Origin: an uncultured Actinomycetes bacterium | Lineage (GTDB): Bacteria; Actinomycetota; Acidimicrobiia; IMCC26256; PALSA-555 | Length of the DNA: 64,000 bases | NCBI GenBank assembly: GCA_963821325.1 | Contig: CAWGDC010000006.1 | Location: 474,060 to 538,059, forward strand | Reading direction: 5' to 3' | Part shown: positions 33,969-56,626 of the stretch, one piece after another | Numbering within the stretch: position 1 is the stretch's first letter | Layout: every line of letters begins with the position of its first letter | Notes under the pieces: model-generated | The model's input: the letters and a program-made list of their open reading frames with translations, nothing else | What the model was told of the DNA's origin: nothing | The model's database searches: none | Program-made: the position numbers and the translations under genes

Positions 33969-36196
33969 GTGCTGAGCACGGAGCCGCTGCACCGGGCGCT
34001 CGGCCTCACCGACGAGGAGCTGGCGGCCATCGTCGAGCTCCTGGGGCGGGACCCGTCCGAGCTCGAGCTCGCCATGTACGCCGTGCTGTGGTCCGAGCAC
34101 TGCTCGTATAAGTCCTCGAAGGTGCACCTCCGCCGACTGGCGAGCGACGCCCCCTGGGTGCTCGTCGGACCCGGGGAGGGCGCCGGCGTGATCGACGTCG
34201 GCGACGGGCTGGCCGTCGCCGTGCGGATCGAGAGCCACAACCACCCGTCGGCCGTCGAGCCCTACCAGGGGGCCGCCACCGGCGTCGGCGGCATCATCCG
34301 CGATGTCTTCTCCATGGGCGCCCGACCGATCGCGCTGATGGACCCGCTGTGCTTCGGGCCGCTCGATCAGCCCCGCAGCCGGTACCTCTGCGAGCAGGTC
34401 GTCGCCGGCATCAGCGGCTACGGCAACGCCGTCGGGGTCCCCACCGTCGGCGGGGAGCTCACCGTCGACGGGTGCTACGCCGGCAACCCGATCGTCAACG
34501 TGCTCTGCCTCGGCATCGCGCCCCACGAGCGGCTCGTCCAAGCGCGCGCCGGCGCCGCGGGGAACCTCGCCGTGCTCCTCGGCTCCTCCACCGGCCGGGA
34601 CGGCATCGGCGGTGCGAGCGTCCTCGCCTCCGCCGGGTTCGCCGCCGACTCCGACGAGAAGCGCCCCGCCGTCCAGGTCGGCGACCCGTTCGAGGAGAAG
34701 CGGCTCATCGAGACGTGCCTGGCGCTCCTCGACGCCGGGCTCGCCGTCGGGATCCAAGACCTCGGGGCCGGTGGGCTGTCGTGCGCCGCGTCGGAGATCG
34801 CCGCGAAGAGCGGCCTCGGCATGGACGTCGACCTCGCCCGGGTCGCCCGGCGCGAGCCGCACATGACGCCCGTCGAGGTCATGACCTCCGAGAGCCAGGA
34901 GCGCATGCTCGCCGTCGTCGAGCCGCGCCACCTCGACGCGATCGTCGCCATCTGCGACCGGTGGGACGTCCGCGCCACGGTCGTGGGACACGTGACCGAC
35001 CGCGGACGCTTCCGGGTCGTCGACGGCGCGTTCGACGGCGGGCCCGACGAGGCGCTCGCCGACGTGCCCGCCGCCAGCCTCGGTGACGGGCCCGTGTACA
35101 CGCGGCCCCTCGCCCGCCCCGACACCCAGGACGGACTGAACGACGCCGACCCGTGGCCGAGCCTGCACGGCGCGTACCCCGACGGCGCCGACCTCGGCCC
35201 CGAGCTGCTCGCCCTGCTCGCCAGCCCGAGCATCGCCGACAAGTCCTGGGTCTTCGGCCAGTACGACCACCAGCTGTTCCTGAACACCGTCGTCGGACCC
35301 GGCGGTGACGCCACCGTGCTGCGCCTCCCCGGCACCCGGCGCGCGCTCGCGCTGAGCACCGACGGGTCGGCCCGCTTCTGTCGTCTCGACCCGCGCGTCG
35401 GTGGACGGCTGGCCGTGCTCGAGGCCGCCCGCAACGTGGCGTGCGTCGGCGCCATTCCCCGCGCCGTCGTCAACTGCCTCAACTTCGGCAACCCGGAGCA
35501 CCCCACGGTGATGTGGCAGTTCAGCGAGGTCGTCGACGGGATCCGCGACGCGTGCCAGGCGCTCGCGTCCCCGTCATCGGCGGCAACGTCAGCTTCTACA
35601 ACGAGTCCCACGGCGCGGACATCGACCCGACCCCCGTGATCGGCGTCCTCGGGCTGCTCGAGCCGCTCGACACCGTGCCGCCCCCCGCCGCGCTCGGCCC
35701 CGGGCAGGCCGTCGTGCTCCTCGGTGCCACCACGCCCGAGCTGGGCGGCTCGGCGTGGGCCACCCGCCACCAGCTCGGCGGCGGACGACCACCCGCCGCC
35801 GACCTCGACGCCGCGGTCGCGGTGCATGACCTCGTGCGCGGCCTCGTCGCCGACCGGTCGGTGCGGGGGGTGCACGACTGCGCCGACGGTGGCCTCGCCG
35901 TCGCCCTCGCCGAGATGGCGATCCACGGAGCGTGCGGGTGCACCGTCACGCCGTCGGCGACCCACCCGGCCGCCGTCGGGTGCTTCTCGGAGTCGGCGTC
36001 GCGGGTCCTGGTGACCGTCGACCCCCCTACCCTCGACGCGTTGCTCGAGCGGGCGGCCGCCGCCGGGGTCGCTGCCGCCGAGCTCGGCTCGGCCGGCGGC
36101 CGCCGCGTCCACGTCGACGGCGCCCTCGACCTCGACGTCGACGACCTGACCCGTGCGTGGCGCGACAGCCTCCCGGCGACGCTCGAGCAGCCCTGA
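33969..36196 (+). CDS. purL: phosphoribosylformylglycinamidine synthase subunit PurL (apparent 1-nt deletion near 35565)
   Basis: ORF 33969..35639 (EHCSYKSSK, ESHNHPS, GGIIRD) continues after ACQAL in ORF 35441..36196 (VPVIGGNVSFYNE...). The span is 2228 nt. Confidence 0.93.
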
Positions 36197-36214: not shown

Positions 36215-38926
36215 TCAGGACTGATGCAGGTAGACGCGACGCTCGTCGCTCGTCAGCGTGCGCACCACGCGGCTCCGGGCGAGCCGCAGCGTCGCGTCGA
36301 TCGGACCGCACTCGAGACAGTGCCAGATCCGCACGGTGCCGTCGCTCGTCGCCGTCGCGAACCGGGTGCCGTCCGGGCTGAACGCCACCGAGGTGACCCG
36401 TGCCGGCTGGCGGAACACGACCGGCGGTGTTCCGGGATCGCGCCAGTCCCACAGCGAGGCGGTTCCGTCGCTGCTCCCGGTGAGGAGCTGGCGGCCGTCA
36501 CGGCTGAACGCCACGCTGTTCAGCGCGTCGGTCTGACGCAGGACGACCGGCGCGGCGTGCGAGTTCCGCAGGTCGTAGACCTGCGCGGTGCCGTCGATGC
36601 TGGCGGTCGCGAGGCGTGCCCCGTCCGGGCTGAAGGCGACGCCCTCGATCGCGCCGCTCTGATAGAGGAAGATCGGCGTGGCGCGCGGGTGCTGCCAGTC
36701 CCACACCCCGGCTGAGGCGTCGAGGCTCGCGGTCCCCAGCCGGGTGCCGCGACGGTTGAACGTGACGCCGACCAAGTCGTCGGTATGACCCGTGAGCACG
36801 ATCGGGGCACGCGCGGGCTGGCGCAGGTCCCAGACCCGTGCGTCGTCGTCGGATCCGGCGGTGGCGAGGTCGTGGCCGTCGGGGCTGAACGCCACGGCGT
36901 ACACGGGTCCCGGCTGCGCGAGCAGGAGAGGCGCGGTCGCGGGGTGGCGCCAGTCCCAGACCGCGGCGAGGCCGTCGATGCTGCCCGTCGCCAGGCGCGT
37001 CCCGTCGGGGCTGAACGCCACCCCGAACACGGTGCCACCCTTCGCGCCGACCACCACGGGGGGCGCGGCCGGGTTGCGCGAGTCCCAGACCGACGCCGTC
37101 CCGTCGAAGTTGGCGCTAGCCACGTGAACGCCGTCCGGGCCGAACGCGACGCTGTTCACCGGCCCGCCGGTCGCCGGCAGCGTCACCGGGTCGGTGTCCG
37201 GTCGTGACCGGTCCCAGACCCGCACCGTCTGGTCCGCGCTCGCGGTCGCGATCTCGGTGCCGTCCGGGCTGCACGCGATGCCCAGGACGGCGTCGGTGTG
37301 GCCGAGCAGCGGCGTCGGGTCGAGTGTCGGGTGGCGCCAATCCCAGAGCTGGGCGACGCGGTCGCTGGCGGCGACGGCCAACGTGTCGTCACGGGTGAAG
37401 GCCACACCGGTCGCGGGGCTCGTCAGGTGGAGCACCACCGGTGGCTGGCCGGGCTGCTGCCACGTCCAGACCGACGCGGTCCCGTCCGCCCCCGCGGTCG
37501 CGACGTGGGCACCGTCCGGGCTGAACGCGACGCCGGCGAGCGCCGCGGTGCTCGGCAGGCTCGTCGGCGTGACCTCGGGAGACCGCCAGCTCCACACGGT
37601 CGCCGTGCCGCCGCTGCCGCTCACGGCGATCTCGTTGCCGTCGGGGCTGAATGCCACCCCCGTGAGACCACTGCCCAGCCGAAGGGCGGTCGGCGGCGTG
37701 CCGGGATGCGCCCAGTCCCACACCGACGCGGTCCCATCCGTGCTCGACGTCGCGAGGAAGCGGCCGTCGGGGCTGAACGCCACCCCGGTGACCGCCCCGC
37801 CGGGCCGGAGCACGGTCGGTGCGCCCGTCGGGTGCCGCCAGTCCCACACCCGCGCGGTGCCGTCGGCTCCGGCGGTGGCGAGCTTCGAGCCGCTGGGGTC
37901 GAACGCGACGGCGTTGACCCCGTTGGTGATTGCCGTGAGCACGACGGGCTTCGCGCTCGGGTGATGCCAGTCCCAGATCCGGGCGGTCCCGTCCGCGCTT
38001 CCGCTGGCGAGATGTGCGCCGTCGGGGCTGAACGCGACGGCGCGGACGATGTCGGTGTGCCCGGTGAGGACCGCCCGCTCGCGGTTCTCGAGGGTCGCCT
38101 GGCGCACGGCGGCCTGCGCCTCGACGGTCGGGCGGGTGTCGTCGGCCTGGAGCGCCAAGAGGAGGCTGAGCTGCGGGTCGGCGTTCAGCTGCGCGTTGGC
38201 GCTCGCCGCCAGCTCCCGTGAGAGCGCGACCTGGGCGGTGTTGTGCGCGTGGACGGCTTGGACCACGGCGACGACGGCCAGCGCGGCGATGAGCACCGTC
38301 GCGGTCAACGCGGCCGCCACGACTCGTCGCAGCCGGCCGGTCGCGGACTGGCGGCTCACCAGCACGAACCGTCGCTGCGCCGACGTCGGCGCGGGACGGT
38401 GGTCGGCGTGGAGCTGCAACGCGGCTTCGGCGTCGCTCAAGTCGGAGCCGCGCAGCACGAGGCTGCGGTCCTCGCCCTTCGTCTCCCACTCCAGGGCCCG
38501 CACGAGGAGCCGGGTGTGGGTCTTCACCCATTCGAGGTCCGTGTCGAGGGCCTCGACGATCCGGGGGAGGCTGTTCTCGCGCTCCCGCTTCGTCCGGCAG
38601 AACACCCAGTTGTGCGATGCGACGGCCGGGGGGAGCCGGCGCTCGCCCGGGCTGCGCACCAGCAGCGGGATGATCCGCTTGTTCAGCTCGACCGCGTGGG
38701 CGAGCTCCTCTCGGCAGACCGGCGAGTCCAACGAGTGCGGGGTGATCACGAACACGAAGGCGCCGGAGCCCTCGATCGCGCCGTGCACCTCGTCTCGCCA
38801 CTCCGCGCTCGGGGGGATCCCCTCCCAGTCGACCCACACGTCGCGGGTCTGGCTCGTGAGCACGTCGACCAGCCAACGCACGAATTGCTGGTCCTCGCGG
38901 GCGTACGAGACGAAGACGTCGCTCAC
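36215..38926 (-). CDS. TIR domain - single TM helix - 14x WD40 repeat protein
   Basis: ORF 36215..39379(-). GTG at 38926 is chosen as start (GGAG 8 nt upstream; the upstream 151 aa are Arg/Pro/Gly junk). The TIR domain is about 38654-38920 (VFVSYAREDQQF...FVFVITPHSLDSPVCREELAHAVELNKRIIPLLV). The TM helix is about 38252-38323. Fourteen WD40 units span 36317-38068. The C-terminal tail reads CLECGP...RTLTSDERRVYL. Confidence 0.85.
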   Translation of the reverse strand: MSDVFVSYAREDQQFVRWLVDVLTSQTRDVWVDWEGIPPSAEWRDEVHGAIEGSGAFVFVITPHSLDSPVCREELAHAVELNKRIIPLLVRSPGERRLPPAVASHNWVFCRTKRERENSLPRIVEALDTDLEWVKTHTRLLVRALEWETKGEDRSLVLRGSDLSDAEAALQLHADHRPAPTSAQRRFVLVSRQSATGRLRRVVAAALTATVLIAALAVVAVVQAVHAHNTAQVALSRELAASANAQLNADPQLSLLLALQADDTRPTVEAQAAVRQATLENRERAVLTGHTDIVRAVAFSPDGAHLASGSADGTARIWDWHHPSAKPVVLTAITNGVNAVAFDPSGSKLATAGADGTARVWDWRHPTGAPTVLRPGGAVTGVAFSPDGRFLATSSTDGTASVWDWAHPGTPPTALRLGSGLTGVAFSPDGNEIAVSGSGGTATVWSWRSPEVTPTSLPSTAALAGVAFSPDGAHVATAGADGTASVWTWQQPGQPPVVLHLTSPATGVAFTRDDTLAVAASDRVAQLWDWRHPTLDPTPLLGHTDAVLGIACSPDGTEIATASADQTVRVWDRSRPDTDPVTLPATGGPVNSVAFGPDGVHVASANFDGTASVWDSRNPAAPPVVVGAKGGTVFGVAFSPDGTRLATGSIDGLAAVWDWRHPATAPLLLAQPGPVYAVAFSPDGHDLATAGSDDDARVWDLRQPARAPIVLTGHTDDLVGVTFNRRGTRLGTASLDASAGVWDWQHPRATPIFLYQSGAIEGVAFSPDGARLATASIDGTAQVYDLRNSHAAPVVLRQTDALNSVAFSRDGRQLLTGSSDGTASLWDWRDPGTPPVVFRQPARVTSVAFSPDGTRFATATSDGTVRIWHCLECGPIDATLRLARSRVVRTLTSDERRVYLHQS
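36317..38068 (-). repeat. intragenic tandem array of 14 WD40-coding units (126-129 nt period)
   Basis: Seen in translation: VAFSPDG is exact in 8 of 14 units, and DGTA..W.W-like strands occur in most units. Confidence 0.85.
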
Positions 38927-39242
38927 CCGCGCCGCTCCCGCGACCCAGAGCGAGGGATCGGCACGCGAGCCGGCGGTGCCTGACGCGCGGTGCTCGACGC
39001 CCACGACGACCGCGGGACGTCTCCCCGTGCCTCCCTGCCCACGGCGACCATCTTGGTCGGCGCCGCCGCGCGCCGGCCCGCAGGTGGTTGTCTCGTCGGT
39101 GGGCGTGCGGGAGACTGCGCCCGGCACGAGGGCCGGGCGGCACGGCGGGCGGCGTCGTCCGCCTCGACGTGGGACCGTCGCCGGGGTGGCGGCGGCCGCG
39201 GGGCGCGGCCGAGCAGCAGGTCGGTGGGGGAGCGAGGCCACG

Positions 39243-40727
39243 GTGAGCACCAAGCAGGAGCTCGACGGTGAGCTCCAGAAGGAGCGAGCCCGGATCCGCG
39301 GCGTGGCGATCCGCAGCACGGACATGTCCCGCCAGCTCGACGTCTTTCTCGCCTGCGCGGTCGGCGGCGTCCTCGGCAACCGGTTCTTCTTGGTCTTGAC
39401 CGGCTATCCCCAGGTCGGGAACGGCACGCTCCACATCTCCCATGCCATCTGGGGCGGGCTCATGATGCTGACGGCGCTGGTCATCGCCATCTCGTACATC
39501 TCGCCCGCCGCCCGCGGGGTGGTGGCCGTCCTCGGCGGCGCCGGATTCGGATGGTTCGTCGACGAGATCGGGAAGTTCATCACCCGGGACGTCAACTACT
39601 TCTTCAAGCCGACGCTGGCGCTCATCTACTCGGTGTTCGTGGCGATGTACCTCGTGTTCCGTTCCCTCGAGCGGCGTCACTACCGGCCCGAGGAGGCCAC
39701 GCTCAACGCCCTCGAGGCCATCAAGTCGGCCGCGCTCGGGCGCCTCGACGAGCCGGCGCGGCTGCGGGCGCTGGCCCGGCTCGACGAGACGACGGACGTG
39801 CAGCCCCTCGCCTCCCACGTGCGCGAGCTGCTGCAGGCGGTGCCGACCATCGCAACGCCACCGCAGGGCCGGTGGCACGGGCTGATGTATCGAGCCCTGG
39901 GCGTCTACGAGCGCTGGACCGTCCGACGAGGCTTCACGTTCGTCGTGACCACGTTCTTCGTGGTCCTGGCGAGCTTCGACGTCGCCCAGATCGGCGCGCT
40001 GTACCTCGCCGACACCCGGCTGCACACGTTCTCGCAGTGGGCGACGGCCGGGTCCGCGGTCTTCTCGCTGGCCCTCGTCGTGGTCGGCGCGTGTCTCCTC
40101 CCCCGAGCCCGTCTCACCGCGTTCCGCTGGTTCGAGGCGGGCGTGCTCGTCTCGATCTTCGTCACCCAGGTGTTCCTCTTCGCCGACCGGCAGCTCGCCG
40201 CGGTGCTCAACCTGTTCGTGGCGATCCTCGTGTGGCTCGGCCTGCGCTCGGCGATCCGCCTGGAGGTGCTCGCCCGCGGCGTCCACGAGTCGTATCGGGA
40301 GCGGCGCCGCGCCACGCTGTCCCCCGGGGACTCGGCGCTCGCCGACTGGGACGAGCTCCCGGAGACGCTGCGCGCCTCGAACCGCGATCAGGCGGCCGAC
40401 TTCGTCGCGAAGCTCGAGGCGGTGCAGTGCGGCGTCGTGCGCTACGGAGGCGGCGACCCACCCCCCTTCGTGTTCACGCCCGTGGAGGTGGAGGTCATGG
40501 CTCGGCTCGAGCACGAGCGGTGGGTCGCCGAGCGGACCCGCCAGGGCTGGCGTCTGGGCTCCGACCGCGACCCGGTCGCCAAGACCACCCCGTATCTCGT
40601 CGACTGGAAGGACCTCACCGAGGCCGTCCGCGACCTCGACCGCGACGCCGTGCGGGAGATGCCCAGCCAGCTGGCCCGACGCGGCCTCGCCGTGGTCCGG
40701 CTGGAAACCAGCCCCGCCGCCGGCTGA
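39243..40727 (+). CDS. polytopic (about 8 TM) membrane protein with C-terminal RyR domain
   Basis: In the frame of ORF 38049..40727. GTG at 39243 follows GGAGCGAGG; ATG at 39324 is an alternative start. The hydrophobic helices fall into two groups of four. The C-terminal region (about 40263-40682) has HESYRERR...WDELPETLRASNRDQA and MARLEHERWVAERTRQGWRLGSDRDPVAKTTPYLVDWKDLTEAVRDLDRDAVR, which is the RyR (PF02026-type) signature. Confidence 0.75.
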   Translation: MSTKQELDGELQKERARIRGVAIRSTDMSRQLDVFLACAVGGVLGNRFFLVLTGYPQVGNGTLHISHAIWGGLMMLTALVIAISYISPAARGVVAVLGGAGFGWFVDEIGKFITRDVNYFFKPTLALIYSVFVAMYLVFRSLERRHYRPEEATLNALEAIKSAALGRLDEPARLRALARLDETTDVQPLASHVRELLQAVPTIATPPQGRWHGLMYRALGVYERWTVRRGFTFVVTTFFVVLASFDVAQIGALYLADTRLHTFSQWATAGSAVFSLALVVVGACLLPRARLTAFRWFEAGVLVSIFVTQVFLFADRQLAAVLNLFVAILVWLGLRSAIRLEVLARGVHESYRERRRATLSPGDSALADWDELPETLRASNRDQAADFVAKLEAVQCGVVRYGGGDPPPFVFTPVEVEVMARLEHERWVAERTRQGWRLGSDRDPVAKTTPYLVDWKDLTEAVRDLDRDAVREMPSQLARRGLAVVRLETSPAAG

Positions 40728-43445: not shown

Positions 43446-43682
43446 ATGCAACCCACCCCGGAGCACGCCCCCCAGAACCGACGCCCTGCGGCGCCCGAGC
43501 AAGAGGAGCTGCTCACCCCGTCCGAGGTCGCGGCCATGTTCCGGGTGAACCCCAAGACCGTCACGCGGTGGGCCCGCTCCGGGAAGATCTCCGCCATCCG
43601 CACCCTCGGCGGGCATCGCCGCTTCCGCAAGAGCGAGATCACCCGCATCCTCGACGACGGCGGCGACGGCTCCGGCGCCTGA
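43446..43682 (+). CDS. BldC-like / excisionase-family MerR-type HTH DNA-binding protein
   Basis: ATG at 43446 in ORF 43122..43682. It has LLTPSEVAAMFRVNPKTVTRWARSGKISAIRTLGGHRRFRKSEI. Its position after purF-purM matches the BldC neighbourhood in Streptomyces. Confidence 0.75.
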   Translation: MQPTPEHAPQNRRPAAPEQEELLTPSEVAAMFRVNPKTVTRWARSGKISAIRTLGGHRRFRKSEITRILDDGGDGSGA

Positions 43683-43704
43683 GCGCCGTCTCGAGCTGGT
43701 CCGG

Positions 43705-43777
43705 TGGCCGGGGCCGGCGTCGATCCGGCGACCCCGCGCTTTTCAGGCGCGTGCTCTGCCAACTGAGCTACCCGGCC
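43705..43777 (-). tRNA. tRNA-Phe (anticodon GAA)
   Basis: Hand fold: acceptor GGCCGGG/CCCGGCC, D-arm GCTC-AGTTGGCA-GAGC, anticodon arm CGCGC-CTGAAAA-GCGCG, T-arm GCCGG-ATCGACG-CCGGC (A at position 54). Confidence 0.88.
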
Positions 43778-43801
43778 GCGTCGACGCCGCAGCGTCGTCG
43801 G

Positions 43802-43876
43802 CGGTCCTGACGGGATTTGAACCCGCGGCCTCCGCCTTGACAGGGCGGCGTGCACTCCAAACTGCACCACAGGACC
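43802..43876 (-). tRNA. tRNA-Asp (anticodon GTC)
   Basis: Hand fold: acceptor GGTCCTG/CAGGACC, anticodon arm CCGCC-CTGTCAA-GGCGG, T-arm GCGGG-TTCAAAT-CCCGT. Confidence 0.92.
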
Positions 43877-43903
43877 TCGAGGAGCGGCGCGTTCGCCGTC
43901 CCG

Positions 43904-43976
43904 TGCCCCCAGGGGAATTCGAATCCCCGTTACCGCCTTGAAAGGGCGGCGTCCTGGGCCACTAGACGATGGGGGC
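43904..43976 (-). tRNA. tRNA-Glu (anticodon TTC)
   Basis: Hand fold: acceptor GCCCCCA/TGGGGGC, anticodon arm CCGCC-CTTTCAA-GGCGG, T-arm GGGGA-TTCGAAT-TCCCC. Confidence 0.92.
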
Positions 43977-44205
43977 TCAGCTCCCCGGAAGGGCACTGCA
44001 TCGTATCAGCGGCGCCCGCCGATCCACCGGGCCCGACATGCACGCGCACGCCGCACCGCGCACCGCGGCGTCGACCTCGGGAGGTGCTGAGCGACGCGAC
44101 GACGGCGCGCCACATGGTCGCGCACCGCGTCGCGGTGTGCCGCCCCGATACCCTGAACGACGGGTGGTGCCGCCGTGTTTGGCGCTACCACACGTCGTCC
44201 ACCTC

Positions 44206-44278
44206 GGGTCGCTAGCTCAACTGGCAGAGCAACGGGCTTTTAACCCGGTGGTTCAGGGTTCGAGTCCCTGGCGGCCCA
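44206..44278 (+). tRNA. tRNA-Lys (anticodon TTT)
   Basis: Hand fold: acceptor GGGTCGC/GCGGCCC (one G-T pair), D-arm GCTC-AACTGGCA-GAGC, anticodon arm ACGGG-CTTTTAA-CCCGG, T-arm CAGGG-TTCGAGT-CCCTG. Confidence 0.92.
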
Positions 44279-45895
44279 CTCGTGCGCAGCGTCGAGCGCG
44301 CACGCATCCCGCCACCTCTCAGGTCGGTGTCGCCGAGCTCGGCGCCGTGTGGTCCCGATCGGCGGTCTCGCTCGTGGGTCCCTCGGTCGAGAGGCGCGCC
44401 GCTTGGGTGACGAGGTAGCGCCGCTCCCGACGTTCGTCGTCCGGGCCGCGGCGGTCCGGAACTCGGCGATCGCGGCCGTGACGAACGTCTCTTGGGATTC
44501 TCCAGCCAGTGCCGTGTCTGGTTGTCACAAGTGGGTGCTGGTGTTGGGGGGTGCTGTTTCGCACGGCTCGTGTGCAGCTTCGAGTGACGCCGGCGCAGCG
44601 TCGACGGCTCGTCGGGTTGTTGCGAGCGGGTGGGGATGTGTGGGCGGCGCTCATCGAGGTGAACGAGGCTCGGTTCCGCCGCCACGCCAGGCCGATCTTC
44701 GGGTATCAGGCGTGGTGTTGCGAGATCGCCGGCGTGGAGGTTGGGGAGCTGTCGGTGGCGGCGATGCGCTCGGTGGTGCGCCGCTACTCGAGCGCCTGCT
44801 GTGAGGTCGCGAAGCGTAAGCGGGCCGGCGAACGGGCCCGCTACCCGCGCCGCAAACGGGGCCTGGTCCCGCTGCGCTGGTCCACCGGCACCTTCAGCGT
44901 CGAGGGTCGGCGGGTGCGCGTATCGATGGCCCAAGGTGTGGCACCGTGCTGGCTGCGGTTGTCCCGCCCGATCCCGTATCCGACCGCGTCGGTGCGTTCG
45001 GTGACCCTGCTGGTCGACGCGGGGCGCCTCGTCCTCGACGTGACCGCCGGCCTCGAGGTCGAGGACCACGACCTGGACCCAACCCGCGTCGCCGGCGTCG
45101 ATCTCGGGATCATCCACCCCATCGCCGCTCGCAGCGCCGAGCAGGCACTGCTGGTCTCGGGGCGGGCCCTGCGCGCCGAAGACCGCCTGCACCTCGCTGA
45201 CACCAAAGCCCGCCACCGCAAGATGGACCCCAGAAAACCCCGACCCGGGCAGCGAGGCTCGCGGCGCTGGCGACAGCTCCGGGCCAAGCAGCGCCGCGCC
45301 GCGGCCGCGAACCAGCGCCGGGTCCGCCAAGCTCACCACGAAGCCGCCCGAACCCTCATCGACTGGGCCATCGCCCAACGCATCGGCACCCTCGTCGTCG
45401 GCGACCCCAAAGGCATCACCACCAAAGATGCCGGGGCGGTGCACAACCGGCGGCTGCGCAGCTGGCGGCGCACGCATCTCATGGGCGCCATCACCGACAA
45501 AGCCGAACGGGCCGGCCTCACCGTCGAACGCGTCAACGAACGCGGCACCTCCAGCACCTGTCCCCACTGCCGTCACCGGGTCCCCAAACCCTCGGGACGC
45601 AACTTCTCGTGTCCCCACTGTGGACACGACGGGCATCGCGACCTCGTCGCCGCCCACAACATCGCCGCCACACGCGGCGGAACCATCACGACCAGACAAG
45701 TGGTCGTGGAGCACCGTCGCGTCGGAACCCCGACCCAGCGACGTGACCGCCGCCGCCACCACATGGACCAGCGTCGGTCCTGCCCGGCCCCGGGCCGCCC
45801 CGCCACCCCCGACGGGGAGTCGCTCGCAGCACACCACGCCTGCGAGGATCAACCAACCCCGCGCCCTACCAGCGCACACGTTGGCTGACGAGGCA
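44279..45895 (+). mobile_element. solo-tnpB IS200/IS605-family (IS1341-like) element; ends not defined (maximal bounds given)
   Basis: The tnpB ORF with no tnpA fills the interval between tRNA-Lys (ends 44278) and the stop of the next gene (45896). Subterminal hairpin candidates lie at 44331-44344, 44429-44489 and 45823-45846. Confidence 0.5.
44551..45888 (+). CDS. tnpB: RNA-guided endonuclease TnpB (IS200/IS605 OrfB family)
   Basis: ORF 44509..45888; GTG at 44551 or 44509. The split RuvC is present: RVAGVDLGIIHP (D), QAHHEAARTLIDWA (E), GHRDLVAAHNIA (D). The zinc ribbon is CPHCRH...CPHCGH. Confidence 0.9.
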   Translation: MLFRTARVQLRVTPAQRRRLVGLLRAGGDVWAALIEVNEARFRRHARPIFGYQAWCCEIAGVEVGELSVAAMRSVVRRYSSACCEVAKRKRAGERARYPRRKRGLVPLRWSTGTFSVEGRRVRVSMAQGVAPCWLRLSRPIPYPTASVRSVTLLVDAGRLVLDVTAGLEVEDHDLDPTRVAGVDLGIIHPIAARSAEQALLVSGRALRAEDRLHLADTKARHRKMDPRKPRPGQRGSRRWRQLRAKQRRAAAANQRRVRQAHHEAARTLIDWAIAQRIGTLVVGDPKGITTKDAGAVHNRRLRSWRRTHLMGAITDKAERAGLTVERVNERGTSSTCPHCRHRVPKPSGRNFSCPHCGHDGHRDLVAAHNIAATRGGTITTRQVVVEHRRVGTPTQRRDRRRHHMDQRRSCPAPGRPATPDGESLAAHHACEDQPTPRPTSAHVG

Positions 45896-51212: not shown

Positions 51213-52027
51213 GCGACGTCGTGCTCGTCGACATCGACGAGCGGGTCGCCACGATCACGCTGAACCGCCCCGAGGTCCGCAACGCCATCAGCGGCGCGCT
51301 CCTCCTCGACCTCGCCCACGCCGTCGGCGACGCGGAGGCGAACGACGAGGTCGACGTCGTGATCCTCACCGGCGCCGATCCGGCGTTCTGCGCCGGCGCC
51401 GACCTGCGCGAGGTGGCCGCCGGGCGGCCCGCCGACGTGTCGGCGCCCGGGACCGACGACCGCTACGCGCGCGACGAGATGGGGAAGTTCCGCTTCCGGG
51501 GGCCCTTCCCGCCCCGCACGAAGCTGTTGATCGGGGCGATCAACGGGCCCGCGATCACCGGCGGGTTCGAGCTCGCGCTCAACTGCGACCTGCTCATCGC
51601 CTCCGAGCGCGCCCAGTTCGCCGACACCCACGCCCGCGTCGGGATCATGCCCGGTTGGGGCCTCACCGTCCTGCTCGCCGAGGCCGTCGGGCTGCGCCGA
51701 GCCCGCGAGCTCAGCGCCACCGGCAACTTCCTCTCCGCGGCCGAGGCGCACGCCTGGGGGCTGGTCAACCACGTCGTCCCCCACGAGCAGCTCCTCCCCG
51801 CCGCCCGCCAGCTGGCCCTCGCCGCGGTGCACAACGACCAGCGCGCCGTGCGTCGCATGCTGCGCACCTACGACGAGATCGCCGGCAGCGTCTACGACCC
51901 GGCCTGGGCGATCGAGGATGGCGTGAACCGCAGCTGGTGGGCGGCCACGTTCGACCCCGCGACGGTGGCCCAACGCCGCGACGCCATCGCGGCGCGCGGA
52001 CGCGACCAGGCCAGTCGGCACACGTAA
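51209..52027 (+). CDS. enoyl-CoA hydratase/isomerase family protein
   Basis: ATG at 51209 overlaps the upstream stop. It has ITLNRPEVRNA, FCAGADL and INGPAITGGFELALNCD. Confidence 0.88.
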   Translation: MSDVVLVDIDERVATITLNRPEVRNAISGALLLDLAHAVGDAEANDEVDVVILTGADPAFCAGADLREVAAGRPADVSAPGTDDRYARDEMGKFRFRGPFPPRTKLLIGAINGPAITGGFELALNCDLLIASERAQFADTHARVGIMPGWGLTVLLAEAVGLRRARELSATGNFLSAAEAHAWGLVNHVVPHEQLLPAARQLALAAVHNDQRAVRRMLRTYDEIAGSVYDPAWAIEDGVNRSWWAATFDPATVAQRRDAIAARGRDQASRHT

Positions 52028-52536
52028 CGCGACGTCGCGCGTACACGCCGCGCTAGAAGCGCACTGCCTTCGCTAAGTGATCGCTAAGGAACTATCGCTT
52101 CGCCACGGCGTGGCTTATCGAGGTGCGGTCGAGTGAAGCGCTCGGGAGCGTGCCATCACTGATCTCATCTACGGGGCGGGGACCTTGGGGTTGTTCGTCG
52201 CCGCCGCGCGTTCGTGTGGGCATGTGACCGCATCATCGGTGACGACGACGCGGCCCTCGCCGAGGAAGGTCCCGACGACGAGGACCTCAAGGCCGAACGG
52301 TCGGTCGCAGGATCGATGGAGGTCTCGTCCGGGGACGTCTCGAGCTCGGTGTCCTCCAGCGGGCGCATGGCCCCCGGAGAGCACTCACTGCGGGGAAACG
52401 GTCGTTGCGATGCTTCGACCGGTCGTTGACGGAGCCGGCGTCGAATCGGCGCGGCGGCGGGTCGTTCGGGTGTGGCCGTCGCCGAGGCTGTAGCGGGCTG
52501 GATGGCTTGAGCACCGGCCGGTTGGAGCGAGTGGCA

Positions 52537-53100
52537 ATGTGGAACCGACTGTGTGATGGGGAGGGAACGTTGCGGGTTGCCAAGACTGCGCTCGGTGTGG
52601 CCGTCGTGGGAGGTCTGTTGTTGAGCGCGGCATCTGCCTCGGCGGCTCCCGCCGTGCCCGGGGGCACCATCAAGCTGTGGGCCGAGAACGGGGGGTTCGG
52701 AGGGACGGTCGTGATCACCGGGGCGATCGGTGACTACGGCAAGGCGGTGAAGGCCAACTCGGCTGGCCGAGCCGACAAGAACGGTCGCTACACCAGCCTC
52801 ATCTTGAGGAAGGGCACGATCCTGATCGACGGGTCCCAGCTGAGGGCAGCGGTACAGAACGGCCTGTCGACCGATTTCAACGATGTGACCTGCTCAGGCT
52901 CGGAAGCTGTCAGTGCCCCGGTCCCGATCGTCAGCGGCACGAAGGCGTACGCGGGGATCTCGGGCTCTCTCACCGCCACGGCGACCTTCGTCTTCATCGC
53001 GCCACTCACGAGCAGCGGCAAGTGCGACACGAGCAACAGCGCCAAGCCAATCGAAGCACTGGAAGCGATTGCGGGCTCAGGTCCAGTGGGCTTCAGCTAG
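52537..53100 (+). CDS. hypothetical secreted protein
   Basis: ATG at 52537 within ORF 52405..53100. It has a signal-like segment (AKTALGVAVVGGLLLSAASASAAPA) followed by a beta-rich 150-aa domain. No family recognised. The surrounding DNA has lower GC. Confidence 0.5.
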   Translation: MWNRLCDGEGTLRVAKTALGVAVVGGLLLSAASASAAPAVPGGTIKLWAENGGFGGTVVITGAIGDYGKAVKANSAGRADKNGRYTSLILRKGTILIDGSQLRAAVQNGLSTDFNDVTCSGSEAVSAPVPIVSGTKAYAGISGSLTATATFVFIAPLTSSGKCDTSNSAKPIEALEAIAGSGPVGFS

Positions 53101-53384
53101 ACCGCGAGAGCGCAGTCACCGCGGTCCGCCCTCCCATCGTGCCAGTGCGAGAGTGCGACGGGCGATCCTGGTTCGGGCAATTTGGTACCACGGAGCCCAC
53201 CCGCCCGATCGCGGATGAAGACTGCACCGGGCTCTCCGAACTCCGCGCCGCGTGCCGCGTTCGCGTAGTTCCCGCACCAACCCGAGGACGGCGCGATCTG
53301 GCGGAAGTCGTGCCAGGACTGTCTCCTTCGCACCGTTGGGAGCGCGCGTCTGCAGCCGTGCCGAGTCCGGCGAGGCAGAGGAGC

Positions 53385-54134
53385 TCAGGCAGAGTCGGGA
53401 GTGATGTCGGACGTGTCCGCGGCGTCCGATGATGACGGAACGACGAACCGGAATCCGGTGCCCGTCTCCGTGAGGAAGTAACGGGGACGAGTGGGGTCGG
53501 GTTCGAGCTTCTGGCGGATCTGGGCCATGAACACTCGCGTGTAGTTGGTCTCGCCCTCGTAGCCCGGACCCCACACCTCCGTGAGTAGATGCGGGTAAGT
53601 GATGAGGCGACCGACGTTGCGACTGAGGAGTTCGACGATTCTCCATTGGGTTCTCGTCAGATGCACGCTCTCCCCGGACGGGTCCCGGACGACCTTGTTG
53701 GCGAGGTCGATCGTGAAGTCGGGTGTCTCGATTACCGCCTCGTCGACTTGGCTATACGAGGTGCGACGCATCGCGGCTCGAAGTCGGGCGACGAGCTCGT
53801 CGATCCCGAAGGGCTTGGCGACGTAGTCGTCGGCGCCGGCGTCGAGTGCAGCGACCTTGTCCTTCTCGTTGTCGCGAGCTGAGAGCACGATGATCGGCAC
53901 CTCGCTCCAACCCCGCAGCCCCTCGAGCACCTCGAGGCCGTCAAGATCCGGGAGCCCAAGGTCGAGGATGACGACGTCGGGCTTGACCCGGGCCGCGACC
54001 GTGAGTGCGCTGCCACCGTCGGCGGCTAACGCGACGTTGTAGCCGCGCGCTCGAAGGTTGAGCTCCAGTGTGCGCCGGATCTGGTGCTCGTCGTCGATGA
54101 CGAGGACGGTGGGCATGGGTGGGGTGTCTGTCAT
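53385..54134 (-). CDS. kdpE: OmpR-family response regulator KdpE
   Basis: ORF 53385..54134(-). It has the receiver domain (VLVIDDE...DLGLPDLDG) and a winged-helix output domain. The start overlaps the kdpD stop (ATGA). Confidence 0.9.
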   Translation of the reverse strand: MTDTPPMPTVLVIDDEHQIRRTLELNLRARGYNVALAADGGSALTVAARVKPDVVILDLGLPDLDGLEVLEGLRGWSEVPIIVLSARDNEKDKVAALDAGADDYVAKPFGIDELVARLRAAMRRTSYSQVDEAVIETPDFTIDLANKVVRDPSGESVHLTRTQWRIVELLSRNVGRLITYPHLLTEVWGPGYEGETNYTRVFMAQIRQKLEPDPTRPRYFLTETGTGFRFVVPSSSDAADTSDITPDSA

Positions 54135-56626
54135 GCGAGAGGCAAGGTGAAGAGCGCCGTGACACCGCCGCCGGGTGTGTCTTCCAGCCGCAGGTCAGCT
54201 CCCATTGACTGCACGAACCCACGTGCCACCGCAAGACCGAGACCGACACCGTGCTGGTGGGCGCTGGGTCCATCGCCGAGGCGCTGAAAGGGCTGAAACA
54301 CGGCCGTCCGTTCGGCTGGCGGGATGCCGGGGCCGCGGTCCACGACGCGCAGTTCCACATGGCCGGCGACGCAGTCCGCCTCGACCCGGACCGGGCGATC
54401 GGGTGGTGACCAACTGAGCGCGTTGTCGATGACGTTGGCGACCGCCCGCTCGAGCAGGGCGGGGTCGGTCGCGATCGGTGGCAGCCCCTCGGGCACGGCG
54501 ATCGCCAGCTCCGTCGTGTCGCGTGACAGGCTCTTGATCGCCGAGAACACCACCTCCTCGGGGGCGGTCGGGCGGAGGGTGATGCTCAGCACGCCCGCTT
54601 GCAGCCGGCTCATGTCGAGCAAGTTGCCGACGAGGCTGTTGAGGCGATCGGCCTCGAGGTCGATCGTCTCGCAGAATCCTTTGACGGTTTCGGGAGGCCA
54701 AGCGACCTCCGGGCTGAGGACGCTGGTGGCGGCGGCTTTGATCGAGGCGAGTGGTGTCCGCAGATCGTGCGAGACCGCGGCGAGCATGGCCAACCGCAGC
54801 TCGTTGGTTTCGGCAAGCGAACTTGCTGATGCCGCGTCGGCCTGGAGGACGATCTGTTGTTGGGCCAATCGGAGCTGGGCGACGAACGTGTTGAGGAGCC
54901 GCCGATCGTCGGCGGAGAGGGAGTGGGTGCCGCGCATGGCGAGCGTGGCGCCGTCGGCCAGCTCAGCCACCGAGTCGGCCTCGTGAGGGCTTCCCGGGGG
55001 GAGGGCACCCGCCGCGGCCTGCATGGTCCAGCCGTCCTCGTTCGGCGTGAGCAAGGCAGCTGCCTCGAGCTGAAATGTCGCCCGCACCTCCTGGACGAGC
55101 TCGTCCAGCGCTTCCGAGCTGGGCATGTCCGAGCGGCTCGCCAAGCGGTTCAGCGTCTCGGCCTCACCTCGTGCCCGGGCGATCTCGAAGCCCCGGCGGG
55201 CGAATCGGTCCGTCAGGACGGCAAACGCTCCCGCGACGGCCAAGAACACGATCAGGACGATGAGATCGTCGGTGTGCGCGATTCGCCAATGGTGAATCGG
55301 TGGCACGAAGTACCAGTCGGCGAGCGCGAAGGCGATCAGCGCGGACGCGACGCCCGGCTTGACTCCCCCGACGGCGGCGACGCACACCATCCCTAGCAGG
55401 AGGAGCAAGAGAACGCTCGAGAGCGACGTACCGCCGCGCAGCGGTATGAGGCCGTAGCAAAGCAGCGGGACGCCCACGAGGGCCAAGAGCCAGCCCGCTT
55501 GGCGACGGGGACGCGACAGGCCCGGATTGGTCGAGCGGCTGTCGACTCCAGAGCCGCGCTCGTCCGTGGTGGAGACGACGTGAACGTCGATCGGTCCGGC
55601 GTGAGTCAAGATGCCTCTGATTACGGAGCCGCTCAGTACCTCGGTCCAGCGGTTCTGGCGACTTGCCCCCAAGACCAGTTGCGTCGCGTTCTCGGCCCGG
55701 GCGAAGGCGACGAGGGAATCAGCGATCCGCTGGCCGCTGATGATCGCGAGCTGGCCGCCGAGTGCGGTGGCGAGGTCTCCGTAGTGGTCCAGCGCCGCTA
55801 CGACGTGTGGGGCTTCCTCGCCGGTCCGGACATGCACGGCAAGGAGATCGGCCCGTGTTCGAGCGGCCATGCGGGCTCCACGCCGCAGCAGGCGCTCGCC
55901 GCCGGGCGCCCCGGTCAGCGCGACGACCACACGCTCGCGAGTGTCCCAGGGTTCGGCCACGCCCTCGGAGGCTCGATAGATCGCGAGGCGCTGCTCGGCG
56001 TGGTCGGCCATCCACTCAAGGGCGAGCTCGCGCAAGGCCCCGAGGTTCTCGACTCGGAAGTAGTGGGACAGTGCGCCGTCGATGCGTTCGGGAGGAAAGA
56101 TGTTGCCGTGCGCCATGCGGCGGCGCAGCGCTTCCGGGGTGAGATCCACGAACTCGATCTGGTCGGCGCGGCGCACGACGGCGTCGGGGATCATCTCTGG
56201 CTCCTCGGCGCCAATGACGGTGGCGACGACGTCGGCGAGAGATTCGAGGTGTTGGATGTTGAGCGTCGTGATGACGTCGATCCCGTCGTCGAGCAGGGCC
56301 TCGACGTCCATCCACCGCTTGGGGTGCTCGCTTCCGGGGGCGTTCGTATGGGCGTAGTCGTCGATGAGCGCGACGCCGGGATGACGTTGCCGAGCCGCCA
56401 CCAGGTCCACCTCGCCGCCAGCGTGCGGAGCGCGAGGCGACCGAGAGCAGAGAGGGTTGAGGCCACCGAGCTGGGCTGCCGTCTGCGGCCGCCCCTTGGC
56501 ATCGACGACGACCGCGACGACATCCGTCCCGCGAGTGAAGCGACGCCGGCCCTCGTTGAGCATCGCGTAGGTCTTCCCCACGCCAGGCGCAGCACCCAGA
56601 TAGATCCGCAGGGTTCCTCGAGGCAT
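54131..56626 (-). CDS. kdpD: sensor histidine kinase KdpD
   Basis: ORF 54131..56659(-). ATG at 56626 has GGAAGGAAAG upstream. It has the N-terminal KdpD P-loop domain (GAAPGVGKTY), a Usp-like domain, 4 TM helices, the H-box (AVSHDLRTPL) and an HATPase domain. Confidence 0.95.
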   Translation of the reverse strand: MPRGTLRIYLGAAPGVGKTYAMLNEGRRRFTRGTDVVAVVVDAKGRPQTAAQLGGLNPLCSRSPRAPHAGGEVDLVAARQRHPGVALIDDYAHTNAPGSEHPKRWMDVEALLDDGIDVITTLNIQHLESLADVVATVIGAEEPEMIPDAVVRRADQIEFVDLTPEALRRRMAHGNIFPPERIDGALSHYFRVENLGALRELALEWMADHAEQRLAIYRASEGVAEPWDTRERVVVALTGAPGGERLLRRGARMAARTRADLLAVHVRTGEEAPHVVAALDHYGDLATALGGQLAIISGQRIADSLVAFARAENATQLVLGASRQNRWTEVLSGSVIRGILTHAGPIDVHVVSTTDERGSGVDSRSTNPGLSRPRRQAGWLLALVGVPLLCYGLIPLRGGTSLSSVLLLLLLGMVCVAAVGGVKPGVASALIAFALADWYFVPPIHHWRIAHTDDLIVLIVFLAVAGAFAVLTDRFARRGFEIARARGEAETLNRLASRSDMPSSEALDELVQEVRATFQLEAAALLTPNEDGWTMQAAAGALPPGSPHEADSVAELADGATLAMRGTHSLSADDRRLLNTFVAQLRLAQQQIVLQADAASASSLAETNELRLAMLAAVSHDLRTPLASIKAAATSVLSPEVAWPPETVKGFCETIDLEADRLNSLVGNLLDMSRLQAGVLSITLRPTAPEEVVFSAIKSLSRDTTELAIAVPEGLPPIATDPALLERAVANVIDNALSWSPPDRPVRVEADCVAGHVELRVVDRGPGIPPAERTAVFQPFQRLGDGPSAHQHGVGLGLAVARGFVQSMGADLRLEDTPGGGVTALFTLPLA

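What the first reader, a model, noticed from the sequence alone, without database searches (positions are those of the whole stretch)
39243..40727. Polytopic membrane protein with a RyR domain as a possible ligand-gated membrane effector
The architecture is 4 TM helices, a soluble linker of about 80 aa, 4 more TM helices, and a soluble tail of about 150 aa. The tail has a SNRxQA-containing helical part followed by a canonical RyR repeat (MARLEHERWVAERTRQGWRLGSDRDPVAKTTPYLVDWKDLTEAVRDLDRDAV). I recognise no catalytic motif. A membrane domain coupled to a putative small-molecule- or protein-binding RyR module is what one would expect of a channel or pore effector. The function is unknown (inference).
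Basis: inference. Interest (0 to 1): 0.6.

Follow-up and report, generated by a model that had tools for sequence, protein, structure and literature searches.

The report
TIR-partnered membrane protein with RyR sensor
An eight-helix membrane protein carrying a ryanodine-receptor-type nucleotide-binding module sits next to a TIR immune-signalling protein, and the pairing recurs across bacteria; it is probably a new TIR-signal-controlled membrane effector that echoes cADPR control of animal ryanodine receptors.

Summary
Window 39243-40727(+) encodes a 494-aa protein with 4 TM helices, an ~80-aa helical insert, 4 more TM helices and a ~150-aa cytoplasmic tail. The tail passes the Pfam RyR threshold.

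Refinement: the "SNRxQA" part is a degenerate first RyR repeat. [quoted passage not shown]

The divergent neighbour (36215-38926, -) is a TIR-TM-WD40 protein. This pair is kept in 6 of 8 informative loci of RyR-fused homologues, in two orientations and with different flanks. None of 61 loci of RyR-less homologues has a TIR gene; many of those lie after clpX.

The same tail is fused to K+ channel/TrkA_N proteins and to an AAA ATPase, and also occurs alone. These genes again sit beside TIR genes (10 of 23 loci). Close relatives of the TIR-WD40 protein pair with RyR proteins or with SLATT.

Two 2026 preprints show that phage RyR-domain proteins bind or cleave the TIR products 2'/3'cADPR. Three of their six contact residues are identical here.

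Best reading (0.55): a Thoeris-like two-gene system in which the RyR module receives a TIR-made signal and controls the membrane domain. Pore or channel activity is not shown, and the TM fold matches nothing known.

The parts
39243..40727 (+). Gene for the 494-aa TM8-RyR protein (GTG start; stop codon included)
   Evidence: Open frame and translation. Twenty-five full-length homologues of 53-98% identity share the same N-terminus.
39324..40274 (+). Eight-helix membrane domain (residues 28-344). Invariant polar motifs: GNRFF, TGYPQVGxGTLHISHAIWGG, GxGWFVDExGKFIT, NYFFxP, WFE...TQVFLF
   Evidence: Hydropathy. AlphaFold helices, TM-only model pLDDT 82.9. Residues invariant in both RyR-fused and RyR-less homologues. 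No Pfam, NCBIfam, PADLOC, PDB-sequence or PDB-fold match. The family has 2188 50%-identity clusters at E<=1e-3.
39675..39926 (+). Cytoplasmic helical insert between TM4 and TM5 (residues 145-228)
   Evidence: AlphaFold helices 149-164, 170-182, 188-199 and 210-227. It carries 13 K/R residues.
40260..40451 (+). RyR repeat 1, degenerate (residues 340-403). H348, Y351 and S379-N380-R381-x-Q383-A384 are invariant. It runs on from TM8 as one predicted helix (317-355).
   Evidence: hhalign against repeat 2: probability 96.3%, E 1.8e-9. Invariant columns. Continuous helix 317-355 in the full-length model.
40479..40709 (+). RyR repeat 2, canonical (residues 413-489). Pocket positions H424, W427, R442, T449, L465 and D466; the codons of H424, W427 and D466 are 40512-40514, 40521-40523 and 40638-40640.
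   Evidence: Pfam PF02026, 48.5 bits. phmmer to RyR1/2/3 and 3NRT. Alignment with phage RyR Tad gp68. Foldseek to human RyR3 Repeat12 and to phage RyR-domain proteins.
36215..38926 (-). Partner gene: 903-aa TIR-TM-WD40 protein, transcribed divergently
   Evidence: ORF. Pfam TIR_2 and WD40. Orthologues lie next to TM8-RyR in L036-L039 and L040-L042.
38567..38917 (-). TIR domain (residues 4-120). E74 (codon 38705-38707) lies in the SxxCxxE[LI] motif.
   Evidence: TIR_2, 90.3 bits against a cut-off of 28. E74 is invariant in six TIR partners. Its equivalence to the catalytic Glu of TIR NADases is inferred from position only.
38252..38323 (-). Single predicted TM helix of the TIR protein (residues 202-225). 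Four Arg residues lie on the N-terminal side.
   Evidence: Sequence and alignment. The TIR-inside, WD40-outside topology is inferred from the positive-inside rule.
36317..38188 (-). WD40 beta-propeller region (about 14 repeats), followed by a conserved C-terminal CxxC...LT..E...YL motif
   Evidence: Pfam WD40, 14 stretches. The C-terminal motif is shared with L036 and L099.
38927..39242 (.). 316-bp divergent intergenic region between the two genes
   Evidence: Sequence. The consensus scan found no sigma-70-like promoter or intrinsic terminator; this is uninformative for a 73% GC actinobacterium.

Best explanation
The two genes form a Thoeris-like, TIR-based signalling pair.

Proposed mechanism:
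1. The TIR-TM-WD40 protein is the sensor and signal generator. Its N-terminal TIR domain is cytoplasmic, and its WD40 propellers (predicted to lie outside the membrane) detect a cue such as phage attack or envelope damage.
2. On activation, the TIR domain converts NAD+ into an ADPR-derived signal, probably a cADPR isomer.
3. The signal binds the cytoplasmic tandem RyR (Repeat12-like) module of the 8-TM protein.
4. That module runs on from TM8 as one predicted helix, so binding would switch the activity of the membrane domain. The likely result is ion or solute leak or loss of an essential membrane function, followed by growth arrest.

Shown here:
- the domain anatomy;
- the tandem RyR fold;
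- conservation of half of the known ligand-contact positions;
- conserved, rearrangement-tolerant adjacency of the two genes;
- recurrence of RyR-TIR adjacency in other architectures and phyla.

Taken from the literature: RyR-domain proteins bind 2'cADPR, 3'cADPR and cADPR.

Inferred: the identity of the signal, the direction of control, the membrane-damaging output and the anti-phage role.
For: 1. Anatomy. Pfam RyR scores 48.5 bits. The tail is two RyR repeats (hhalign 96%). It superposes on human RyR3 Repeat12, including its ATP/ADP/dantrolene complexes, and on phage RyR-domain proteins. TM8 and the first repeat helix form one predicted helix, 317-355. The tail and the TIR domain are both predicted to be cytoplasmic.

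2. Ligand precedent. Phage RyDEP cleaves 2'/3'cADPR, and 6 of 8 tested phage RyR-domain homologues bind these signals. RyR Tad gp68 binds 3'cADPR with Kd 43 nM, and also 2'cADPR and cADPR. In my alignment with gp68, H424=H129, W427=W132 and D466=D171 are identical and R442=K147 is conservative. H424, W427, R442 and D466 are invariant across 26 fused proteins.

3. Conserved pairing. TIR-WD40 orthologues (35-59% identity) lie divergently upstream in L036/37/43, L038 and L039. They lie convergently downstream in L041/42 and L040. The P0005 locus is syntenic with L041. The outer flanks differ between loci: pur genes here; Nfu_N/aldo-keto reductase, MarR/SBP and amidohydrolase/MMPL elsewhere. Pairwise identities of the two proteins co-vary (r = 0.99 over 10 pairs from 5 loci).

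4. Specificity. None of 61 loci (392 kb) of RyR-less TM8 homologues has a TIR ORF. Ten of 23 loci (398 kb) carrying the same tail on other proteins do: Fisher p = 4e-7, or 9e-5 after collapsing five related loci.

5. Modularity typical of conflict systems. The TIR partners carry WD40, Pkinase, alpha/beta-hydrolase, Ig or Sel1 domains. The RyR partners carry TM8, a K+ channel (TVGYGD) plus TrkA_N, 2TM plus TrkA_N, or an AAA ATPase.

6. Reverse search. Relatives of this TIR-TM-WD40 protein pair with SLATT_1 (L098), with a solo RyR protein plus SLATT_3 and TIR-kinases (L099), or with a TrkA_N-RyR protein (L100). SLATT is the effector of type VII Thoeris. RyR proteins therefore occupy the slot of a known effector.

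7. Solo-RyR/TrkA_N-RyR/TIR operons occur in L103 and L104. The L104 operon lies beside Wadjet-like genes.

8. The TIR motif glutamate E74 is invariant.
Against: - No experiment exists on any host-encoded RyR-domain protein.
- Two of eight informative fused loci (L001, L003) have no TIR gene within 10 kb.
- The closest TIR relative (L097, 81% identity in the TIR domain) is frameshifted and has no RyR neighbour.
- Two of the six gp68 contact positions differ here: T449 for His and L465 for Lys. The human Repeat12 domain binds ATP/ADP, so the ligand could be an ordinary adenine nucleotide.
- The TM domain has no similarity to any known pore. Its RyR-less relatives look like housekeeping genes.
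- In this window the pair sits among purine-biosynthesis genes, not in a defence island, and the two genes are divergent rather than co-transcribed.
- The TIR-WD40 protein has its own sensor domain and could act alone as an NAD+-depleting effector.
- The loci were sampled by homology, not at random, so the enrichment statistics are indicative only.
Confidence: 0.55

Rival explanations
1. Signal sink or off-switch. The RyR module does not gate anything. It sequesters or hydrolyses the TIR-made signal, as phage RyDEP and RyR Tad do. This would set a threshold or reset signalling and protect the cell from its own TIR protein. The real killing would come from NAD+ depletion by the TIR, or from another effector.
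For: H424 and D466 sit at the positions of the RyDEP catalytic dyad. Stand-alone tandem RyR proteins with no effector domain lie next to TIR genes, in L099 together with a SLATT protein and in L103/L104 together with a second, TrkA_N-linked RyR protein. This is what one expects if some RyR proteins are buffers.
Against: The same His/Asp pair is kept in non-catalytic sponges, so it is not diagnostic. A sink does not need an invariant 8-TM domain joined to it by a continuous helix. Nor does it explain repeated fusion to channel-type proteins.
Confidence: 0.15
2. Metabolic regulation. The RyR module senses ordinary adenine nucleotides (ATP/ADP/AMP) or NAD+/ADPR levels and tunes a housekeeping transporter or membrane enzyme. 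The link with TIR proteins would be indirect, for example a response to NAD+ consumption, or part of a non-immune stress or developmental pathway.
For: The human RyR3 Repeat12 domain is solved with ATP, ADP and AMP-PCP bound. RyR-less TM8 homologues are core-genome-like, lying directly after tig-clpP-clpX in 9 loci. The tail is most often fused to TrkA_N/RCK proteins, which are classical nucleotide-regulated K+ transport modules. Thirteen of 23 such loci and 2 of 8 fused loci have no TIR gene nearby. The window context is housekeeping.
Against: This does not explain why the TIR-WD40 gene stays adjacent through rearrangement and changing flanks. It does not explain 10/23 against 0/61 TIR co-occurrence, nor why SLATT and RyR proteins alternate as partners of the same TIR family.
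Confidence: 0.2
3. Chance or merely syntenic neighbours. The TIR-WD40 and TM8-RyR genes are inherited together only because the sampled genomes are related, with no functional link.
For: All fused loci come from related Acidimicrobiia-like metagenome bins. Only about four independent lineages were seen. The genes are not in one operon here.
Against: The outer flanks are not conserved, although the pair is. The orientation changes from divergent to convergent and the pair stays adjacent. The RyR-TIR link recurs in Acidobacteriota, Nitrosomonas, Aminicenantes and other actinobacteria, with unrelated N-terminal domains.
Confidence: 0.05

Closest known systems
Thoeris anti-phage systems, especially type II (ThsB TIR plus a TM-Macro effector) and type VII (TIR plus the SLATT effector ThsH, signal cADPR)
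   Same: A TIR protein sits next to a protein that joins a small-molecule-binding domain to a membrane domain. The partners are modular and swappable. Relatives of this TIR protein pair with SLATT.
   Different: The receiver is a tandem RyR repeat module, not SLOG, Macro, DUF6650 or SLATT. The membrane domain is an 8-TM family of unknown function. The TIR protein is a large TM-anchored WD40 protein. Neither protein reaches any Thoeris model cut-off in PADLOC or NCBIfam. RyR and WD40 are absent from the text and supplements of the 29-type Thoeris survey.
Phage RyR-domain proteins RyDEP (mycobacteriophage DyoEdafos gp78) and RyR Tad (Pectobacterium phage CB1 gp68)
   Same: Same Pfam family (PF02026) and a two-fold symmetric four-helix pocket architecture. 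The His, Trp and Asp contact residues are identical, and Lys147 is replaced conservatively by Arg.
   Different: The phage proteins are small, soluble homodimers that counteract defence. Here the two repeats are in one chain (repeat 1 degenerate: Tyr for Trp, Asn for Asp, loop deleted). The module is host-encoded, fused to a membrane protein and adjacent to the signal-making TIR gene.
Repeat12 (R12) domain of animal ryanodine receptors RyR1-3
   Same: Tandem-repeat fold (Foldseek target-normalised TM-score, TMt, 0.50-0.56 over ~185 columns). The sequence motifs HExW and SNRD are shared. The module is attached to a membrane transport protein and binds adenine-containing ligands.
   Different: None of the other RyR domains (SPRY, MIR, RIH, the six-TM Ca2+ pore) is present; Pfam finds only the RyR repeat. 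The protein is 494 aa rather than ~5000 aa. It is not a ryanodine receptor.
RCK/TrkA_N-regulated prokaryotic K+ channels and transporters
   Same: A cytoplasmic C-terminal ligand-binding module is joined to the last TM helix. The same RyR tail is found on K+ channel (TVGYGD) plus TrkA_N proteins.
   Different: The window protein has neither a K+ selectivity filter nor a TrkA_N domain. Its TM domain is unrelated to these.

Membership tests
Pfam RyR domain family (PF02026; R12-type repeat) | The profile HMM match exceeds the curated gathering score | tested here: met
   48.5 bits against 27.4, residues 416-481. phmmer reaches RyR1/2/3 at E~1e-13 and 3NRT at 1e-5.
Pfam RyR domain family (PF02026; R12-type repeat) | A two-fold symmetric pair of repeats, either tandem or homodimeric, forms the ligand-binding domain | tested here: met
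   Repeat 1 against repeat 2 by hhalign gives 96%, E 1.8e-9. The whole tail aligns to the two-repeat human RyR3 848-1055 domain, probability 1.0.
cADPR-isomer-binding RyR-domain proteins (RyDEP / RyR Tad) | The six ligand-contact positions of gp68 are present (H129, W132, K147, H154, K170, D171) | tested here: inconclusive
   Repeat 2 has H424, W427 and D466 identical, R442 conservative, and T449 and L465 different. Repeat 1 keeps only the His, with Tyr and Asn as substitutes. Some relatives (L024) keep all six.
cADPR-isomer-binding RyR-domain proteins (RyDEP / RyR Tad) | Measured binding or cleavage of 2'cADPR or 3'cADPR | not testable with these tools
   Needs purified protein and EMSA, ITC or TLC assays as in PMC13232231.
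Thoeris (TIR-signalling defence) | A TIR-domain protein with the catalytic glutamate is encoded next to the effector | tested here: met
   TIR_2 scores 90 bits. E74 is invariant; calling it the catalytic residue is inferred from position. Adjacency is conserved in 6 of 8 informative loci.
Thoeris (TIR-signalling defence) | A match to a described Thoeris type in curated ThsA/ThsB or other type-specific models | tested here: not met
   TM8-RyR has no hit in PADLOC or NCBIfam. The TIR protein gives only weak ThsB-like hits (E 1e-9 in PADLOC; 26 bits against a cut-off of 220 for ThcB4). No RyR effector appears in the 29-type survey.
Thoeris (TIR-signalling defence) | Protection against phage that depends on the TIR signal and the effector | not testable with these tools
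   Requires phage challenge of a host expressing the pair.
Ion channels and pore-forming effectors (K+ channel, SLATT, other defence TM effectors) | A recognisable pore domain by profile or by fold | tested here: not met
Animal-type ryanodine receptor | RyR repeats together with SPRY, MIR and RIH domains and a C-terminal six-TM cation pore | tested here: not met
   Pfam finds only one family, RyR, in the protein.

The most novel reading that the evidence does not exclude
The tandem RyR repeat would be an ancient, widespread receiver domain for TIR-made cADPR-type signals. In bacteria it would sit on channel-like membrane proteins: this 8-TM family, and TVGYGD K+ channels with RCK domains. A bacterial 'TIR -> cADPR-like signal -> RyR module -> ion flux' pathway would then be the evolutionary forerunner of the disputed cADPR control of animal ryanodine receptors. 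On this reading, the partner would be a Toll-like-receptor-shaped protein, with an extracellular repeat sensor, one TM helix and a cytoplasmic TIR domain.
Probability: 0.3. Interest if true: 0.9.

Novelty: new variant of a known kind. Interest (0 to 1): 0.8.

Why it matters
TIR signalling with a downstream effector is a known principle (Thoeris). In the literature I could search, RyR-type repeats have so far been tied to it only as phage counter-defence proteins (two mid-2026 preprints).

Host genes that fuse the same module to membrane and channel proteins, and keep it beside TIR genes, would do three things:
- add a new receiver domain and new effector classes to bacterial TIR immunity;
- explain what the many 'RyR domain' proteins of bacteria are for;
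- give a simple bacterial model for testing whether the Repeat12 domain of ryanodine receptors is a cADPR-type sensor, a question open in animal calcium signalling for decades.

It would also assign a first regulatory handle to a large uncharacterised 8-TM protein family.

Tried and rejected
1. I first thought the TIR neighbour was coincidental. The three best long-contig homologues (P0006, P0005, P0013) showed no annotated TIR gene. This was reversed when tblastn showed that genes listed with no Pfam hit on record are TIR-WD40 orthologues.

2. Identifying the TM domain led nowhere.
- Pfam, NCBIfam and PADLOC: nothing.
- Foldseek against PDB: only meaningless MFS matches.
- Profile against PDB sequences: nothing.
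- hhalign of TM1-4 against TM5-8: no internal duplication.
- Source names are 'hypothetical protein', plus two mutually inconsistent, probably spurious labels (YdcZ/DUF606, MnhC).

3. The 634-aa multi-TM protein between the K+ channel-RyR gene and the TIR-kinase gene in L016 looked SLOG/SLATT-like to me by eye. It has no Pfam, PADLOC or NCBIfam hit, so I make no claim about it.

4. The homologue search with the tail alone returned only 17 short proteins. No TIR-RyR fusion in a single polypeptide was found.

5. The promoter and terminator scan of the locus found nothing.

6. Pur-gene synteny is not conserved with the pair, so a purine-metabolism role was dropped.

7. Literature searches for SLATT+RyR, SMODS+ryanodine and RyR domain+TrkA gave nothing relevant.
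Full report
**What is there**

Window 39243-40727(+) is an open frame of 494 codons with a GTG start. Twenty-five full-length homologues of 53-98% identity align from the same N-terminus.

Hydropathy and two AlphaFold models agree on the layout (full length, pLDDT 68; membrane part with a 90-sequence alignment, pLDDT 82.9):
- four TM helices at 28-53, 62-83, 88-113 and 122-143;
- a soluble helical insert at 149-227;
- four more TM helices at 229-256, 263-285, 290-315 and 317-344;
- a soluble tail at 345-494.

Lys and Arg residues concentrate in the N-terminus, the insert, the 286-289 loop and the tail. The tail is therefore predicted to be cytoplasmic.

**The tail**

Pfam RyR (PF02026) matches residues 416-481 at 48.5 bits, against a cut-off of 27.4. 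phmmer against PDB sequences hits the repeats of RyR1/2/3 at about 1e-13, and the bacterial 'putative ryanodine receptor' structures 3NRT and 6UAG.

- A profile of residues 340-403 aligns to a profile of 416-489 with 96% probability, E 1.8e-9. H348/Y351 lie opposite H424/W427, and S379-N380-R381 opposite L465-D466-R467.
- SNRD is also the motif of the second repeat of human RyR3 R12.
- The whole tail superposes on the two-repeat human RyR3 Repeat12 domain (848-1055, including the ATP, ADP and dantrolene complexes) over ~185 columns, with target-normalised TM-score (TMt) 0.50-0.56.
- With weaker E-values, it also superposes on phage RyR-domain proteins.

In the full-length model, TM8 and the first helix of repeat 1 form one helix, 317-355.

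**The membrane domain**

It has no Pfam, NCBIfam or PADLOC match, no PDB fold match and no PDB sequence match. I detected no internal duplication.

It is nevertheless a large family. A profile search of 1.84 billion representative proteins finds 2188 clusters at E<=1e-3, nearly all about 340-400 aa and lacking the tail. Sources call them 'hypothetical protein'.

The RyR-less members look like housekeeping genes. In 9 loci the gene lies 40-60 bp downstream of tig-clpP-clpX; in others it follows a short-chain dehydrogenase.

The polar motifs are invariant in both the fused and the unfused proteins: GNRFF, LHISHAIWGG, GWFVDExGKF and NYFFxP. Whatever the domain does, the fused proteins still do it. 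There is no positive evidence that it is a pore.

**The neighbour**

On the minus strand, 36215-38926 encodes a 903-aa protein with:
- an N-terminal TIR_2 domain (90 bits);
- a helical linker;
- one hydrophobic helix (202-225) with four arginines on its N-terminal side;
- about 14 WD40 repeats.

The glutamate of the SxxCxxE[LI] motif (E74) is invariant in six related TIR proteins. I take it to be the catalytic Glu of TIR NADases from its position only. The positive-inside rule places the TIR domain in the cytoplasm and the propellers outside, which is a Toll-like-receptor-like layout. This topology is inferred.

The pair sits between purL and purF.

**Is the pairing conserved?**

At first it seemed not to be. 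However, tblastn showed that unannotated neighbours are TIR-WD40 orthologues:
- They are divergent and upstream in L036/L037/L043, L038 and L039, where TM8-RyR is 54-57% identical to the window protein.
- They are convergent and immediately downstream in L041/L042 and L040, the 66-67% clade.
- The P0005 locus is syntenic with L041.

The outer flanks differ from locus to locus, and pur genes are never present. Identities of the two proteins co-vary (r = 0.99 over 10 pairs from 5 loci).

Two fused loci on megabase contigs (L001, L003) have no TIR gene within 10 kb. None of 61 loci (392 kb) of RyR-less homologues has a TIR ORF when searched with a TIR HMM.

**Does it generalise?**

The ~150-aa tail occurs on other proteins:
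- K+ channels with a TVGYGD filter plus TrkA_N (Vicinamibacterales);
- 2TM plus TrkA_N proteins (actinobacteria, Nitrosomonas, Bacteroidales);
- an AAA ATPase (L017; a related AAA-type ORF in L035);
- a 1301-aa multi-repeat protein;
- on its own.

In 10 of these 23 loci (398 kb) a Pfam-confirmed TIR_2 gene lies within a few kb. The TIR domain is fused to Pkinase, alpha/beta-hydrolase, Ig-like or Sel1 domains, or to no recognisable domain. Fisher's test against the RyR-less control gives p = 4e-7, or 9e-5 after collapsing the five Vicinamibacterales loci.

I also searched in the opposite direction, starting from the TIR-linker-TM region. Of four long-contig relatives:
- one pairs with SLATT_1 (L098);
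- one pairs with a solo tandem RyR protein, with SLATT_3 and three TIR-kinases nearby (L099);
- one pairs with a TrkA_N-RyR protein (L100);
- one is frameshifted and alone (L097).

Two solo RyR proteins found independently lie in TIR/solo-RyR/TrkA_N-RyR operons. One of these lies beside Wadjet-like genes.

**What the literature adds**

Two preprints from mid-2026 show that phage RyR-domain proteins act on TIR products.
- RyDEP is a glycosidase that opens 2'cADPR and 3'cADPR. Its contact residues are H75, W78, H100 and D117, and most of its homologues are sponges (PMC13232231).
- RyR Tad gp68 binds 3'cADPR at 43 nM, and also 2'cADPR and cADPR, through H129/W132, K147/H154 and K170/D171 (10.64898/2026.06.04.730250).

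I fetched gp68 (L101:2143-2694) and aligned it with the window tail. The window protein has H424, W427 and D466 identical, R442 in place of K147, T449 in place of H154 and L465 in place of K170. H424, W427, R442 and D466 are invariant in the family.

Neither paper describes host-encoded RyR effectors. The 29-type Thoeris survey mentions neither RyR nor WD40 in its text or supplements. Further literature searches found nothing else.

**Interpretation**

The best-supported reading is a Thoeris-like pair. The TIR-TM-WD40 protein senses a cue and makes an ADPR-derived signal. The tandem RyR module receives the signal and switches the attached membrane domain.

Three things are not shown:
- what the ligand is;
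- whether the module gates, sequesters or cleaves;
- what the membrane domain does.

Rivals:
- The tail is a signal sink. The solo RyR proteins and the retained His/Asp dyad make this credible.
- The tail is an ATP/ADP or NAD-state sensor on a housekeeping membrane protein.
- The two genes are merely syntenic, which is now unlikely.

I put 0.55 on the signalling-effector model.

**Novelty**

I classify this as a new variant of a known kind: TIR signalling with a new receiver domain and new effector classes. It is not a ryanodine receptor, and it fails every curated Thoeris model. The most novel reading still open is that a bacterial TIR-to-RyR-module-to-ion-flux pathway is the ancestor of cADPR control of animal ryanodine receptors.

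Noticed in passing
window 33969-36196 (+), junction near 35550: purL (FGAM synthase II) is split between two reading frames: 33969-35639 carries AIRS/AIRS_C and 35441-36196 carries AIRS_C. A 1-nt indel is implied. This is either an assembly error or a pseudogene.
   Followed up: partly
window 43446-45888: An excisionase-type HTH_17 gene (43446-43682), four tRNA genes (Phe, Asp, Glu, Lys; 43703-44279) and an IS605 OrfB/TnpB gene with a Cas12f1-like TNB domain (44509-45888) lie 3-5 kb downstream of the pair.
   Followed up: partly
window 52000-62000: A block of lower GC (0.65-0.69 against ~0.73 elsewhere) holds kdpE, kdpD and kdpABC, followed by an MnhE-like gene. It may have been acquired horizontally. 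A second lower-GC block at 16-22 kb was not examined.
   Followed up: partly
L016 8714-13966 (also L014, L018, L019, L020; Vicinamibacterales): A conserved cluster contains a K+ channel (TIGYGD/TVGYGD) + TrkA_N + tandem RyR gene, overlapping the start of a 634-aa multi-TM protein that has no family match, followed by a convergent TIR-Ser/Thr kinase gene.
   Followed up: partly
L104 2247-9723 (GCA_965185675.1); L103 5295-9845: Three-gene operons combine a solo tandem-RyR protein, a TrkA_N-RyR protein and a TIR protein. In L104 the operon lies next to DUF3323/DUF2399/SbcC-type (Wadjet-like) genes.
   Followed up: partly
L098 6418-8005; L099 1-8194: Close relatives of the window TIR-TM-WD40 protein pair with a divergent SLATT_1 protein (L098). 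In L099 the neighbourhood holds a solo RyR protein, a SLATT_3 protein and three TIR-Pkinase genes.
   Followed up: partly
L021 421-4326 (candidate division WOR-3): A 1301-aa protein has 2TM + TrkA_N followed by several RyR-like repeats spread along the chain, recognisable by repeated EHERW/SNR motifs.
   Followed up: no
window 36215-36320 (-); L036, L099 C-termini: The TIR-WD40 proteins end in a conserved motif, C-x-x-C...L-R-L-A...R-x-L-T-x-x-E-R-x-x-Y-L. It is kept even in a short 397-aa variant with only two or three WD40 repeats. Its function is unknown.
   Followed up: no
L046, L049, L051, L053, L059, L061, L067, L070, L088: The RyR-less 8-TM homologues lie directly downstream of tig-clpP-clpX and upstream of a conserved ~280-aa unknown gene and a Mur-ligase-type gene. 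This is a core-genome-like context for a large family with no annotation.
   Followed up: partly
L010 and L011 (OY970233.1): The complete 3.55-Mb chromosome that carries the RyR-fused P0006 gene also carries two RyR-less paralogues, 68% and 55% identical to the window protein. Fused and unfused copies therefore coexist in one genome.
   Followed up: no
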